A DNA stretch of 62,757 nt, the filler included, from Eubacteriales bacterium (GTDB taxonomy: Bacteria; Bacillota; Clostridia; Oscillospirales; CAG-382): the NCBI GenBank assembly GCA_045636665.1. It is 7 parts of 7 records of this genome, joined end to end, with 100 filler letters (N's around TTAATTAATTAA, not from the genome) between each part and the next. Parts side by side here need not be neighbours in the genome. Positions count along the whole stretch, not along the records: positions 1 to 6,890 come from JAZTXY010000033.1; 6 more parts are not named here. One strand, written 5' to 3'. Of the stretch, positions 1 through 3,000 are shown in pieces; the first letter of the stretch is position 1, and every line of letters begins with the position of its first letter. A program made the position numbers.

Positions 1-3000
1 AGGAGCATCTTGCACGGTAGCGGTAGCGTCGGTAGCGGTGCCTGCTTCGAGGTCGAGACCGGCGAAGGTAATCTTGTCGCCTGCCTTAAGTGCCAAAGCT
101 GCTACTTTATCCTGCCAGTTAGCATATTCAACAGCAGCGTCTTCAGTGTAGTCGCCGGCAGCATTAGGTCTGGAACCTGCAGAGTGAGCCATCATAACGA
201 TTTGAGCTTCAGTCAAGGGTTCAACTGCGGATTTCCAGTCGCCAGTGCTCTGAGGAGCATTGTAAACTGTAACTACTTCGTAAACATCGCCCTCGACATT
301 TTCGAGAACTACGCTTACAGCCCAACCGTTGGTGGTCTTCCAAGTTTCGTCACTTGTGTAGATCGTGTTGGTTTCGTTAGGTGCTACGTTTACGCCTGCG
401 ATATCGAATACGTAGCCGTAAGCGTTGGACACCTTCATGTCTTTGCTCTCGGAATCGATTTCATACTCGCCTTCAGCCCAGTGGATTTCTACTGCGCTTA
501 CAGGAATAGCAAAAATTGCCGATACGAGAAGAGCGGAGAGAAGGATGGAGAGGAATTTCTTCATTTTGATGTTTCCTTTCAAATATTTTTTGTATAAAAT
601 AATACATAATTTAATTTAACACACATTTTGCATTTTGTCAATTGATTTGTCGTTTTTTTTACAATTCCATAATATAAAAACTTCTCATTTTATTCACAAT
701 GCAAATATAAAACACTTTCTATATATATATGCCGTCACCTTAAAAAGAAATCCATAAGTCCCATCCTACTTCAACAACAAAAAAAGGAACGGAAAGCCGT
801 TCCTTTTTTTGGCACGCCGCAAGGGATTCGCCCGCCTTCGTCCACCCCAAAAATTCACTTTCTTCATTTTTAGGGACCCCGGGGCGGAGCGGTGGCGCGG
901 TCTGACGTGCCACCGGCACGTCATTCAACACGCGCCCTTCGAATCCCATTCCCTTTCTTTACCTTAACAACAAAAAAAGGAACGGAAAACCGTTCCTTTT
1001 TTTGGCACGCCGCAAGGGATTCGAACCCCTGACCTACTGGTTCGTAGCCAGTTACTCTATCCAGCTGAGCTAGCGGCGCATATTCAACGCGTTATATAAT
1101 ACCATAAACAAACACGGTTGTCAAGAGTAAATTTGAAAATGTTATTATTTTTTGCAAAAAGATGAGGGGACTGAACAAGTCCCCCGATATCAAATCACTC
1201 TTTTTCGTTGAGCCGCTTTTCCAATTCCTCGATGCGCGAGCGCAAAAGAGTCAATTCCTGAGCTACAGGGTCGGGAATGTTTAATTGGTCGAGCGTTTGC
1301 TCTTTATCGACGTGCTTGCCGCGAACAATGCGAGCAGGCACACCTACTGCGGTTGAGTTTTCGGGGATATCCTTAAGCACGACAGCACCTGCCGCGATTT
1401 TGGAATTATCGCCGATAGTTATGGGGCCCAAAACCTTTGCGCCTGCCCCAATCATTACGTTATTGCCGATCGTAGGGTGACGTTTACCGACGTGCTTGCC
1501 CGTACCGCCCAAGGTGGCGCCTTGATAGATTGTGCAGTTGTTACCGATAACGGTCGTTTCACCGATTACAACGGCGCATCCGTGGTCGATAAAAAGACCT
1601 TTTCCGATAGTTGCGGCAGGGTGGATTTCGATACCCGTGATATTTCTTGCCCACTGGCTCACAGCACGCGCGGCAAAAAACTTGCCGTTTTTATATAGCT
1701 TATGCGCTATTCTGTGCGCAATAACTGCGTGAAGCCCGGGATAAAGCAGCAAAACCTCGGCATCGCTTCTTGCGGCAGGGTCGCGGTCGCGTATCGAGCG
1801 CACCTCGCTCTTAAGGTCGCCCAACGCTTTGTCCGCCTTGCTTTTCAATTCCTTAATACGGCGTTCAAACGCTTCGATATCGCGCGAATAATCTGTATAA
1901 TTCATATAAACGCTTCTTTCGTAAAGTTAAATATCAAACGGTCAACCGTTTGCGCGGTGTCCGATGGCGTTGATTTTCGCAACACCGTCGGTTATGTTTA
2001 TTTCAAAGACGAGCGTACGCGTTTCATCCGGAAGGATGTCGTTTCTGAACGTCCCGTTATTTTCAAAGATACGGTAGCTTACCTCGTAAATTTCACGCAC
2101 GGCGTTGCTTTCTTCATCGGCAACGTCGGAACGGTACAAATTGATATGCACGTCGTATATACCCTGCATCGTAAAACGCTCGGGCAGTGTGAAATTACTT
2201 GAAGCGAGGCACTCTTGAGTAAAAAATGACGAATAGTTTTGATAATCGCCTTTTATAAGACAGTCGAAATAGTTGTAAAACAAATCTGCCGCAAGAGAAA
2301 TGCCGATAGCATTTTCCTGAGTCAATACGTTTTCACTGCCCATTCTTTCGAAATATATATTTCTGTTCAGGGCAAGATAAAGCTTTTCCTCGAGAATATT
2401 TTTGTTGTAATCCGCTTCGAAGAAACGGTAATCTTCATAAGAAACATCCGAATATTCGGGCTCAAGCAAATAGGTAACCGCAGAAAGCACGCCATAAATT
2501 GCAACCAACGCAACAAACAAGCTAAGAACGATTATGACGATTTTTTTGATCTTCTTTTTATCCGCCGCCGTGTTTCGTTTTTCCTCGGGCGGGATGATGC
2601 GCTTTTCTTCTTTTTTCATAATATGCAGCTCTACCTATTTCAATCACATATGGGGCGCTTAATCAAGCGCCCCATATAAGTTGTTGTTTTACTGATTAAT
2701 AAAACGTTTGAGGTTATCGCAACCGATTCTAATGCCCTTGAGTGCATCTTCCATGCCTTCAAATTCAATGCAAAGGAATCCGTCATATCCGTTGCGCTTC
2801 AAGGTTTGGATGCACTGACGAACGGGAACGTCGCCGTGACCGATAATCGAGCCGCGGAGATAGTTGCCGCCGCGAGACTGGAACCAGCCCTCGCCGGGTG
2901 CATCGAGCGAACCGCTCTTCTTGTGGAAGTCCTTCGCGTGAGCGTGGACAGCATAACGGGAAAGAACACCTACTGCATAGTTGTGATCAGCATCTGCACA

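What a model noticed while it worked through the whole genome (the two positions that open the first line are those of the whole stretch)
767..1079. Tiny non-coding inserts behind five tRNA/tmRNA genes, each carrying a copy of its own target's 3' end
Five RNA genes (tRNA-Arg-ACG C33:1003-1079, tRNA-Arg-CCT C81:17947-18021, tmRNA C84:1-145, tRNA-Ser-GGA C14:50687-50777, tRNA-Leu-GAG C86:74704-74786) are each followed, just after their terminator, by a 130-250-nt non-coding insert (C33:767-959, C81:17757-17939, C84:226-379, C14:50775-50952, C86:74452-74632). Each insert begins with an inverted copy of that gene's own T-arm joined to a shared core (GAAGGGCG..hairpin..GACCGC(G)CCAC) and ends in a direct duplicate of that gene's own 3' end, in three cases with the terminator as well (64, about 85 and about 80 nt). 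They look like miniature, integrase-less relatives of tRNA-targeting islands, retargeted to five different genes.
Evidence so far: The five regions were found as two clusters of mutually similar intergenic DNA and read in tRNA sense. Direct repeats measured: C33 64 nt (61 identical), C84 101-nt window (90 identical), C86 91-nt window (83 identical), C81 15 nt exact within a longer imperfect copy of the T-arm and acceptor end, C14 17 nt (15 identical). No Rfam family beyond the tRNA/tmRNA genes themselves at E<=1 except chance-level hits. Exact core pattern: 2 places here (the other three copies differ by a few bases), 5 of 100 other CAG-382 genomes, 0 hits of the reversed control pattern; the 49-nt core of C33 is identical in two genomes of another genus, which speaks for recent spread.
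(Added by a program. Inside this text positions count along the whole contig: they may not be those of the stretch shown here. "Call 12" and the like, gene names such as g00115 and contig names such as C1 are that model's own, and its searches are not shown. The text may have been shortened before it was handed on; [...] marks where a part breaks off. The agent that wrote the report below was given it as the finding of a first reader that could run no searches.)

Follow-up and report, generated by a model that had tools for sequence, protein, structure and literature searches.

The report
Structured repeats behind tRNA genes
Behind many tRNA genes of this gut Clostridium and its relatives sits a small folded non-coding element that ends in a copy of that tRNA's own tail, the same puzzling layout as the "tRNA-linked repeats" known in E. 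coli since 1978 and still unexplained.

Summary
The genome holds six copies, not five.

- **Layout (tRNA sense).** Each copy reads: tRNA, terminator 1, short spacer, inverted copy of the T-loop and 3' T-stem strand, conserved core, direct copy of the tRNA's last 21 nt ending in CCA, terminator 2.
- **Fold.** The two tRNA-derived arms pair and close a three-way junction. Covariation is strong: 97% of cells paired, 17 of 32 pairs changed on both sides, 0 of 500 shuffles as good.
- **Spread.** The model finds it in 37 of 151 genomes of the order and in 7 other genomes of 150 in the class sample. It follows at least 18 tRNA species plus tmRNA.
- **Databases.** No Rfam family matches.
- **Recombinases.** None of 55 downstream ORFs carries a recombinase domain. 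Y1 transposases do not track the element.
- **Closest known.** The layout matches E. coli tRNA-linked repeats (RtT, RrA/B/F) point for point, though no homology is detectable.

Best reading: a clostridial counterpart of tRNA-linked repeats. It is probably a small RNA made by read-through of terminator 1, multiplying and moving by recombination at tRNA 3' ends. Expression, function and the mechanism of spread are not shown. It is a new variant of a known, unexplained kind.

The parts
1003..1079 (-). tRNA-Arg(ACG) gene with encoded CCA. Its last 21 nt (window 1003-1023, T-loop position 56 to A76) form repeat copy 1.
   Evidence: ARAGORN; Rfam tRNA at 60.9 bits; promoter-like site at 1124-1096.
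972..1002 (-). Terminator 1: an A-run, a 7-bp GC-rich hairpin (996-979) and a T-run (978-972).
   Evidence: Read from the sequence. The scan did not list it.
948..971 (-). AT-rich spacer with no promoter-like site.
938..947 (-). Inverted copy of the tRNA's T-loop and 3' T-stem strand. This is the 5' strand of closing helix P0 (947-940), followed by two invariant A.
   Evidence: 10 of 11 complementary to the tRNA. P0 is paired in 93.8% of cells.
894..937 (-). Core rod. P1 is 936-931 paired with 899-894. P2 is the hairpin 923-903, with a conserved G-rich three-base loop.
   Evidence: Folds. Covariation: P2 has 8 of 9 pairs changed on both sides and is 100% paired.
831..893 (-). Conserved linker and P3 hairpin (887-883 paired with 836-832). 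In this copy P3 carries a roughly 42-nt extra hairpin (about 882-837) in its loop.
   Evidence: P3 has 3 of 5 pairs changed on both sides. The extra hairpin is present in some copies only.
810..830 (-). Direct copy of the tRNA's last 21 nt, ending in CCA. Its first 8 nt form the 3' strand of P0; the acceptor strand and CCA remain an unpaired 3' tail.
   Evidence: 21 of 21 identical to the tRNA; folds.
779..809 (-). Terminator 2, a near copy of terminator 1 (hairpin 803-786, T-run 785-779).
   Evidence: Direct repeat 767-830 against 960-1023, 95.3%.
767..778 (-). End of the 64-nt repeat. It is followed (about 740-766) by a decayed likeness of the spacer and inverted arm.
   Evidence: read by eye.

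Best explanation
**What it is.** A clostridial counterpart of the tRNA-linked repeats (TLRs) of E. coli. It is a 100-145-nt structured module placed between a tRNA's terminator (T1) and a second terminator (T2).

**Shown.**
- The tRNA-sense strand folds into a three-way junction.
- The closing helix is built from an inverted copy of the tRNA's T-loop and 3' T-stem strand, paired with the start of a direct copy of the tRNA's last 21 nt.
- The rest of that copy, the acceptor strand plus CCA, hangs free as a 3' tail.

**Inferred by analogy with E. coli RtT and RrA/B/F.**
- It is transcribed from the tRNA promoter by read-through of T1.
- It is trimmed to a stable small RNA whose 3' end is the copied CCA. 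The copied tail and closing helix would give it the same end-processing signal as the tRNA.

**Inferred from comparative patterns.**
- Units multiply in tandem by unequal recombination between the repeated tRNA tails.
- They reach new genomes and new tRNA genes by recombination anchored on tRNA 3'-end similarity, so jumps run between RNAs with alike T-loops or tails.
- No enzyme of its own is involved.

The cellular function of the RNA is unknown, as it is for E. coli TLRs.
For: **Architecture.** It is the same in all six copies here and in distant genomes.

**Covariation on 18 gapless copies.**
- 97.2% of cells are paired.
- 17 of 32 pairs are changed on both sides.
- 0 of 500 shuffles reach this, and slid controls pair in 38-44% of cells.

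**Which strand folds.** G-U pairs outnumber A-C by 18 to 2 and by 35 to 9, so the tRNA-sense strand is the folded one.

**Promoter.** There is no promoter-like site between the tRNA and the element.

**E. coli comparison.**
- Passages of PMC8144298 state that there are 22 TLRs at ten loci.
- The same passages say each TLR ends in 18-19 bp identical to the 3' end of the upstream tRNA or rRNA.
- They report that rrA/B/F lie between T1 and T2 and are made by read-through of T1.
- They state that no function is known.
- In the tyrT-tyrV locus, each 178-nt unit has a 10-nt inverted arm and a copy of the tRNA-Tyr tail.
- Rfam's RtT structure is a closing helix with a free tail ending in CCA.
- rrnB shows the same arm after T1 and a tail copy before T2.

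**Tandem arrays.** They occur in G050, G013, G012 and G036.

**Core lineages track T-loop classes.**
- One P2 variant sits with one class of T-loop ending in 10 of 10 copies.
- The other variant sits with the other classes in 10 of 10 copies.

**Terminator-1 likeness follows target likeness.**
- tmRNA against tRNA-Ala scores 0.48, and Leu-TAG against Leu-GAG scores 0.47.
- The median over 903 pairs is 0.06.

**Recombinases.** No recombinase lies nearby, and there is no link with Y1 transposases.
Against: - **Expression is not shown.** No RNA data could be had.
- **T1 looks strong.** A strong-looking terminator stands between the tRNA and every copy, whereas E. coli RtT has none.
- **The fold suits DNA too.** The z-score is -5.1 as DNA and -3.2 as RNA, and covariation cannot tell RNA from single-stranded DNA.
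- **No homology to E. coli TLRs.** The model built here does not hit them, and Rfam RtT does not hit the element. The likeness may be convergent.
- **The core also occurs away from tRNAs.** It has other closing stems in one bacterial family and in 31 of 33 matched stretches of predicted viral contigs, up to three per 15-kb contig. That looks more like a mobile repeat than a tRNA-operon RNA.
- **Mixed arrays.** Arrays whose units share near-identical terminators but have different cores (G012) are not simply explained by unequal crossing-over.
- **Stale tail copies.** At C81 and in G040 the tail copy carries another tRNA-Arg(CCT) allele than the gene in front. The copy is therefore not always kept in step with the gene.
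Confidence: 0.5

Rival explanations
1. A non-autonomous integrative element that works as folded single-stranded DNA, in the manner of integron attC sites or CTX-type phage attachment sites. The closing helix imitates the duplex of the target's T-arm. A recombinase supplied in trans exchanges one strand in the T-loop or at the tRNA's 3' end, which leaves the tRNA tail duplicated.
For: - The direct repeat runs from T-loop position 56 to the 3' end. From recall, this is the usual identity block of T-loop-type tRNA integration sites.
- The repeat ends exactly at CCA wherever the two terminators differ.
- Tandem accretion occurs.
- Presence is patchy at one locus across species, including decayed remnants in G017 and G038.
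- G014 compared with G031 looks like a filled site against an empty one, with a 21-nt duplication.
- Identical cores occur across genera.
- The DNA fold has z = -5.1.
- The P3 loop is a three-base G-N-A type loop, which from recall is very stable in DNA.
Against: - No recombinase is linked: 0 of 55 downstream ORFs.
- Y1 transposases occur in 16 of 37 carrier genomes and 41 of 114 non-carriers. One family has the element in 6 of 7 genomes and Y1 in 0 of 7.
- A T-loop crossover with a foreign unit should give a chimeric tRNA. At C81 and in G040 the opposite is seen: an intact gene with a foreign downstream copy.
- No hit was found in the plasmid or phage record collections.
- No circular form was seen, though none could have been seen with these tools.
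Confidence: 0.22
2. Scars left when larger tRNA-targeting islands were deleted, with no function of their own.
For: - tRNA 3' ends in these genomes are crowded with other inserts and partial tRNA copies.
- Decayed copies exist.
Against: - The same precise architecture recurs behind 18 tRNA species and across an order.
- Compensatory changes occur in three helices.
- No copy examined has its two halves separated by cargo: all 32 distinct copies are complete within 200 nt, and 3 more were cut by contig ends.
- No integrase remnants lie nearby.
Confidence: 0.04
3. A REP- or MITE-like selfish DNA repeat. Its ancestral form is the version not linked to tRNAs, seen in one bacterial family and in viral contigs. 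The tRNA-linked form would be a lineage that captured tRNA-derived arms.
For: - The core occurs with other closing stems in several copies per genome and per viral contig, in either orientation relative to flanking genes.
- Many copies lie at contig ends, as repeats do.
Against: - There are no constant terminal inverted repeats and no short target duplication.
- There is no link with the Y1 (RAYT-type) transposases that move REPs.
- It does not explain the tail copy ending in CCA or the E. coli parallel.
Confidence: 0.15

Closest known systems
E. coli tRNA-linked repeats (TLRs): RtT / rttR in the tyrT-tyrV operon (Rfam RF00391) and RrA/B/F behind 5S rRNA
   Same: - They lie directly behind a stable-RNA gene, in the same orientation.
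- The 3' end is a copy of the upstream RNA's own 3' end: 18-19 nt there (PMC8144298 passages), 21 nt here.
- An arm at the 5' side is complementary to that copy and closes the fold, leaving a free tail ending in CCA.
- One to several tandem units occur per locus.
- In rrn operons the unit sits between T1 and T2.
- No function is known.
   Different: - No detectable homology in either direction.
- This family has its own covarying three-way-junction core.
- A terminator stands before every copy here, whereas RtT has none.
- This family is spread over an order of Clostridia and behind 18 tRNA species plus tmRNA.
- RNA has been shown for RtT and RrA/B/F, not for this family.
- The core also occurs away from tRNAs.
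tRNA-targeting integrative elements and their gene-less derivatives (cis-mobilizable elements); recalled, not looked up
   Same: - They are flanked by a direct repeat of the tRNA's 3' part, starting in the T-loop.
- They accrete in tandem.
- Their distribution is patchy.
   Different: - This element is 100-190 nt with no gene and no integrase nearby.
- Its interior is a conserved folded core, not arm-type protein sites.
- The same core serves many tRNAs.
Folded single-strand recombination sites (integron attC, CTX-type phage sites); recalled
   Same: - Function would reside in a single-strand fold conserved in shape more than in sequence.
- The closing stem imitates the target duplex.
   Different: - No integron integrase or Xer link was tested or seen.
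- A three-way junction is not the attC shape.
- The comparison rests on inference only.
REP / REPIN elements moved by RAYT transposases, and IS200/IS605 miniature derivatives
   Same: - They are small hairpin-rich intergenic repeats.
- They occur in many copies and cause assembly breaks.
   Different: - Y1 transposases do not track this element.
- The ends of the tRNA-linked form are target-derived.

Membership tests
tRNA-linked repeats (TLR), defined by architecture | Lies immediately downstream of a tRNA or rRNA gene, in the same orientation. | tested here: met
   43 of 64 copies have a complete tRNA within 330 nt upstream, with the element starting 37-57 nt after CCA for first units. The other 21 are later units of arrays, follow partial tRNA copies or tmRNA, or are cut by contig ends.
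tRNA-linked repeats (TLR), defined by architecture | The 3' end is identical to the 3' end of the upstream stable RNA (18-19 bp in E. coli). | tested here: met
   The copy is 21 nt: 21/21 identical in 25 of 43 copies and at least 19/21 in 37 of 43.
tRNA-linked repeats (TLR), defined by architecture | One to several tandem units per locus. | tested here: met
   There are two or three units in G050, G013, G012, G036, G032 and G232.
tRNA-linked repeats (TLR), defined by architecture | Transcribed with the upstream RNA and processed to a discrete small RNA. | not testable with these tools
   No RNA holder was listed. Only the lack of an own promoter-like site is seen.
Rfam RtT (RF00391) | Match to the covariance model. 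| tested here: not met
   There is no RtT hit at E up to 10 on the window copy, nor at E up to 0.1 on six other loci. RtT does hit the E. coli locus at 133-137 bits. The model built here gives nothing meaningful on E. coli TLRs.
Integrase-borne tRNA integrative element | A recombinase gene within or beside the element. | tested here: not met
   0 of 55 downstream ORFs in 41 loci. One serine recombinase upstream in G026 belongs to another island. The 46 upstream ORFs listed were not scanned.
Integrase-borne tRNA integrative element | Direct repeats of the tRNA 3' part flank the insert. | tested here: met
IS200/IS605 miniature or REP-RAYT element | Co-occurrence with a Y1 (HUH) transposase. | tested here: not met
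   PF01797 is present in 16 of 37 carrier genomes and 41 of 114 non-carriers. In family f17 the element is in 6 of 7 genomes and Y1 in 0 of 7.
MITE | Constant terminal inverted repeats plus a short target duplication. | tested here: not met
   The inverted arms differ from tRNA to tRNA and equal the local T-arm. The duplication is 21 nt or longer.

The most novel reading that the evidence does not exclude
This would be a homing system with no gene of its own. The roughly 66-nt core plus an 8-11-nt arm complementary to the T-arm would direct insertion exactly behind the CCA of any tRNA or tmRNA whose T-arm it matches. Insertion would duplicate the last 21 nt, using only host enzymes. E. coli TLRs would be the same phenomenon. 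That would define a general, unrecognised class of elements that target the 3' ends of stable-RNA genes and can be re-aimed by a few base changes.
Probability: 0.18. Interest if true: 0.85.

Novelty: new variant of a known kind. Interest (0 to 1): 0.6.

Why it matters
tRNA-linked repeats have been known in E. coli since 1978, and the 2021 paper whose passages I read says they still have no known function.

A second, unrelated family with the same layout has now turned up in another phylum. That argues the layout itself is selected or produced by a general mechanism, and is not an E. coli oddity.

This family offers what the E. coli one lacks:
- many diverged copies, with clear covariation;
- at least 18 tRNA targets;
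- core lineages that follow T-loop classes;
- decayed and tandem forms.

Both open questions, what the RNA does and how the ends come to match each tRNA, therefore become testable by comparison and in cultured gut Clostridia.

In practice, the elements also break metagenome assemblies at tRNA and tmRNA genes. They are not in Rfam.

Tried and rejected
- **Loose core pattern in viral contigs.** It returned 118 stretches. Only 11 had any hairpin of at least 7 bp, and by eye none was the element.
- **The single scan of genome contigs.** I gave it wrong gap lengths (5-7 where most copies have 4). It returned only 12 stretches, of which 4 were true copies. No broad list of named organisms was obtained.
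- **BLAST of the 102-nt C84 copy.** No match in the plasmid and phage record collections.
- **Sequencing runs.** No RNA holder was listed. All 20 runs held a small share of the words, so nothing was laid.
- **Bosl and Kersten 1991.** The paper is not held. What I say about it comes from passages of two other papers and from recall.
- **Y1 transposase as mover.** No association.
- **Homology to E. coli TLRs.** None detected.
- **Copy from the mature tRNA rather than the gene.** I asked whether target genes lack an encoded CCA. The test is uninformative, because 31 of 32 predicted tRNA genes here encode CCA.
- **A second clean filled/empty pair.** A search in the genus of G111 found no orthologous empty site, only the same hairpin-array element behind another tRNA.
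- **Terminator scan.** The tool's scan did not list the two terminators of the window copy. They are read from the sequence.
- **Ideas thought through but not tested.** These were reverse-transcription models, hairpin-primed copying, nicking in the T-loop by a Rep-type enzyme, and a k-turn reading of the P1/P2 internal loop. None fitted all junctions.
- **The chimeric unit in G036.** It has the inverted arm of one tRNA and the tail copy of another, and it lies at a contig end. It may be a misassembly, so I did not use it.
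Full report
**What is in the window**

- On the minus strand, window 1003-1079 is tRNA-Arg(ACG). 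A strong promoter-like site lies just upstream.
- Read in tRNA sense, the gene is followed by these parts:
  - an A-run, a 7-bp GC hairpin and a T-run (terminator 1);
  - a 24-nt AT-rich spacer;
  - a 10-nt stretch that is the reverse complement of the tRNA's T-loop and 3' T-stem strand;
  - a GC-rich core;
  - an exact copy of the tRNA's last 21 nt, ending in CCA (830-810);
  - a near copy of the terminator.

**The other copies in this genome**

- The tmRNA gene is broken over two contigs at the repeat.
- A covariance model built later finds a sixth copy behind tRNA-Gln(CTG), at C126:22831-22935. In that copy helix P1 is rewritten on both strands.

**The fold**

- All five copies first folded give the same picture in tRNA sense. 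The inverted arm pairs with the first 8-10 nt of the tail copy (P0).
- Inside P0 are a long rod (P1 and P2, with a G-rich three-base loop) and a short hairpin (P3). The acceptor strand plus CCA is left unpaired.
- I aligned 18 gapless 102-nt copies from different genomes and tRNAs and counted pairs for this structure:
  - 97.2% of cells are paired.
  - 17 of 32 pairs are changed on both sides.
  - The covariation score is 0.334, against 0.121 for shuffles, and 0 of 500 shuffles reach it.
  - Slid controls give 38-44% paired.
  - P2 is 100% paired, with 8 of 9 pairs changed on both sides. P3 has 3 of 5 such pairs and P0 has 5 of 9.
- G-U pairs outnumber A-C by 18 to 2 in that alignment. Seventeen of the 18 G-U pairs come from one conserved position. 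In the wider alignment the count is 35 to 9. The tRNA-sense strand is therefore the folded one.
- The window copy folds better than shuffles both as RNA (z = -3.2) and as DNA (z = -5.1). These data cannot tell RNA from single-stranded DNA.

**How widespread**

- A loose pattern hits 29 of 164 genomes of the family. That includes 24 of the 60 other genomes of the genus. The reversed control pattern gives 11 hits.
- The model R1 hits 37 of 151 genomes sampled from the order, in 14 of 30 families and 22 of 96 genera. Some weak hits cover the P2 rod only.
- In the class sample it hits 7 other genomes of 150, in four families.
- Distant copies keep the whole layout.
- Of 64 copies examined, 43 have a complete tRNA within 330 nt upstream in the same orientation.
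  - The other 21 are later units of arrays, follow partial tRNA copies or the tmRNA, or are cut by contig ends.
  - The 43 tRNAs belong to 18 anticodon species.
  - The tail copy is 21/21 identical in 25 and at least 19/21 in 37.
  - The inverted arm matches at least 10/11 in 41.
- Rfam 15 has nothing for it.

**Not an island relic**

- I scanned 55 ORFs of at least 110 aa lying within 1.5 kb downstream of the element in 41 loci. None has a recombinase, integrase or transposase domain. Most are housekeeping genes.
- The 46 upstream ORFs listed were not scanned.
- An earlier scan of 18 ORFs in 8 longer loci found one large serine recombinase, in G026. Its junctions lie inside the acceptor stem, and it looks like a separate island using both tail copies.
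- Y1 transposases (PF01797) are present in 16 of 37 carrier genomes and 41 of 114 non-carriers. One family has the element in 6 of 7 genomes and Y1 in 0 of 7.
- The plasmid and phage record collections give no match.

**The decisive comparison: E. coli**

- Passages of Stenum et al. 2021 (PMC8144298) describe tRNA-linked repeats (TLRs).
  - There are 22 at ten loci of E. coli K-12, with one to five per locus.
  - The three behind 5S rRNA lie between terminators T1 and T2.
  - Those three are made by read-through of T1, are processed, and bind Hfq and CsrA in vitro.
  - The family has no known function.
- I looked at two E. coli loci myself.
  - In tyrT-tyrV there are three 178-nt units after tyrV and one between the two genes. 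Each unit has a 10-nt arm perfectly complementary to the tRNA-Tyr T-arm/acceptor region and a copy of the tRNA tail.
  - The Rfam RtT consensus structure is exactly a closing helix made of these two, with an unpaired tail ending in CCA.
  - The annotated rttR RNA runs from 8 nt after tyrV to the CCA of the first copy.
  - In rrnB, the stretch after T1 is 80% complementary to the 5S tail region. That tail recurs just before T2.
- The clostridial elements therefore have the TLR layout point for point.
- They are not detectably homologous. RtT does not hit them, and R1 gives only terminator-like noise on the E. coli loci.

**How copies multiply and move (inference)**

- Tandem arrays of two or three units occur in several genomes. 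Unequal recombination between the repeated tails explains these.
- Presence at the tRNA-Arg(ACG) locus is patchy among species of the genus:
  - one unit in G000, G022 and G040;
  - two or more units in G050 and G013;
  - a decayed stump in G017;
  - none in G008, G045, G019, G042 and G031.
- G014 and G031 differ by exactly terminator 1, spacer, arm, core and a 21-nt duplication. The sequence after the copy is itself a mobile-looking hairpin array, so this pair is not fully clean.
- Where the two terminators differ, identity between the two tails stops exactly at CCA.
- The same 49-nt core sits behind five or more different tRNAs in different species.
- Core lineages follow T-loop classes. One P2 variant goes with one class of T-loop ending in 10 of 10 copies (Arg-ACG, Ala, Gly, Pro). 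The other variant goes with the remaining classes in 10 of 10 (Leu, Glu, Arg-CCT, tmRNA). Within a class the closing helix needs 0-2 changes to fit a new tRNA. Relatedness of the genomes inflates these counts.
- Terminator-1 sequences are alike between targets with alike tails, even where the cores differ in type. tmRNA against tRNA-Ala scores 0.48 and Leu-TAG against Leu-GAG scores 0.47, against a median of 0.06 over 903 pairs.
- Together these patterns point to recombination anchored on tRNA 3'-end similarity, with tail-plus-terminator and core behaving as separately exchangeable parts.

**What does not fit neatly**

- At C81 and in G040 the gene has one acceptor-stem allele of tRNA-Arg(CCT), and the downstream copy has the other allele. 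That other allele is the functional one in G050, G019, G028 and G008. The copy is thus a fossil or an import, not a mirror of the present gene.
- In G012, three units have near-identical terminators but two different cores.
- Several arrays end in a further terminator and inverted arm with little or no core after it, at varying break points.
- A strong-looking terminator stands before every copy.

**The core away from tRNAs**

- In one bacterial family (4 of 4 genomes sampled), the same P1-P2-P3 core has a different, constant closing stem and is not next to tRNAs.
- A specific core pattern finds 33 stretches in predicted viral contigs. Thirty-one hold the core and two are chance hits in coding sequence. 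Nearly all are of this second kind, there are up to three per 15-kb contig, and they lie in either orientation to the flanking genes.
- The core is thus a more general repeat module. The tRNA-linked form is one way of closing it.

**Verdict**

The island kinship does not.
- The thing belongs, by architecture, with E. coli tRNA-linked repeats, as a new and much richer family.
- I put 0.5 on the reading that it acts as a read-through small RNA whose copied tail is its end-processing signal, and that it spreads by tail-anchored recombination.
- I put about 0.2 on a single-stranded-DNA integrative element using a recombinase in trans.
- The remainder goes to a selfish repeat or a scar.
- Function and mover remain unknown.

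Noticed in passing
G000:C124:18700-19130 and G000:C8:26650-27100; L047, L046, L049, L061; L194, L199; L295: A second kind of insert follows many tRNA terminators. It begins right after CCA with its own terminator. Then comes a roughly 200-250-nt array: a 9-mer repeated three times, each repeat followed by a GC hairpin, and then the reverse complement of the 9-mer repeated three or four times. It carries no copy of the tRNA tail. The same array family follows different tRNAs in different genomes. In several loci it follows the tail copy of the element studied here.
   Followed up: partly
window about 837-882 (-); C81 copy (L001), inside the P2 loop; L061 inside a hairpin array: A roughly 35-42-nt extra hairpin (G-rich foot, A-run, T-run) sits in the P3 loop of some copies and not others, even within one tandem array (G050). 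A similar module lies in the P2 loop of the C81 copy and inside a hairpin array. It may be a still smaller insert.
   Followed up: no
L230, L231, L233, L234; L261-L292: The same core, not next to tRNAs and with a different, constant closing stem, occurs in all four sampled genomes of one bacterial family. It also occurs in 31 of 33 matched stretches of predicted viral contigs, with up to three copies in one 15-kb contig.
   Followed up: partly
L043:15681-16928 (-) and L013: In G026 a large serine recombinase gene ends exactly at a junction inside the acceptor strand of the tRNA-Leu tail, in front of the element. The tail copy behind the element is cut at the matching point. It appears that an island integrated into both tail copies.
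   Followed up: partly
L001, L200, L201-L204: The genus has two acceptor-stem alleles of tRNA-Arg(CCT) that differ by three compensated base pairs, and G040 has an intermediate form. In G050 and G019 the gene sits about 290 nt behind the same promoter that directly precedes it in G000 and G045.
   Followed up: partly
L236, L244: Two cultured isolates (an Oscillospiraceae bacterium and an Acutalibacter sp.) carry the P1/P2 internal-loop motif around a hairpin with the same loop. It is followed by a second hairpin, and it is neither near a tRNA nor matched by the model.
   Followed up: no
G000:C45 and C84; many loci: Contigs often end inside or beside these elements. The tmRNA gene is split over C45 and C84, and about a dozen hits lie within 200 nt of a contig end. 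The repeats evidently break metagenome assemblies at tRNA and tmRNA genes.
   Followed up: no
L233:2717-2796 (+): A Gut-1 RNA (RF01706, 61 bits, above its gathering score) lies about 1.1 kb from one of the copies not linked to a tRNA.
   Followed up: no
whole window: The window holds 528 N. It is made of more than one contig of the assembly: C33 at its start, and C35 at 18891-36288.
   Followed up: no
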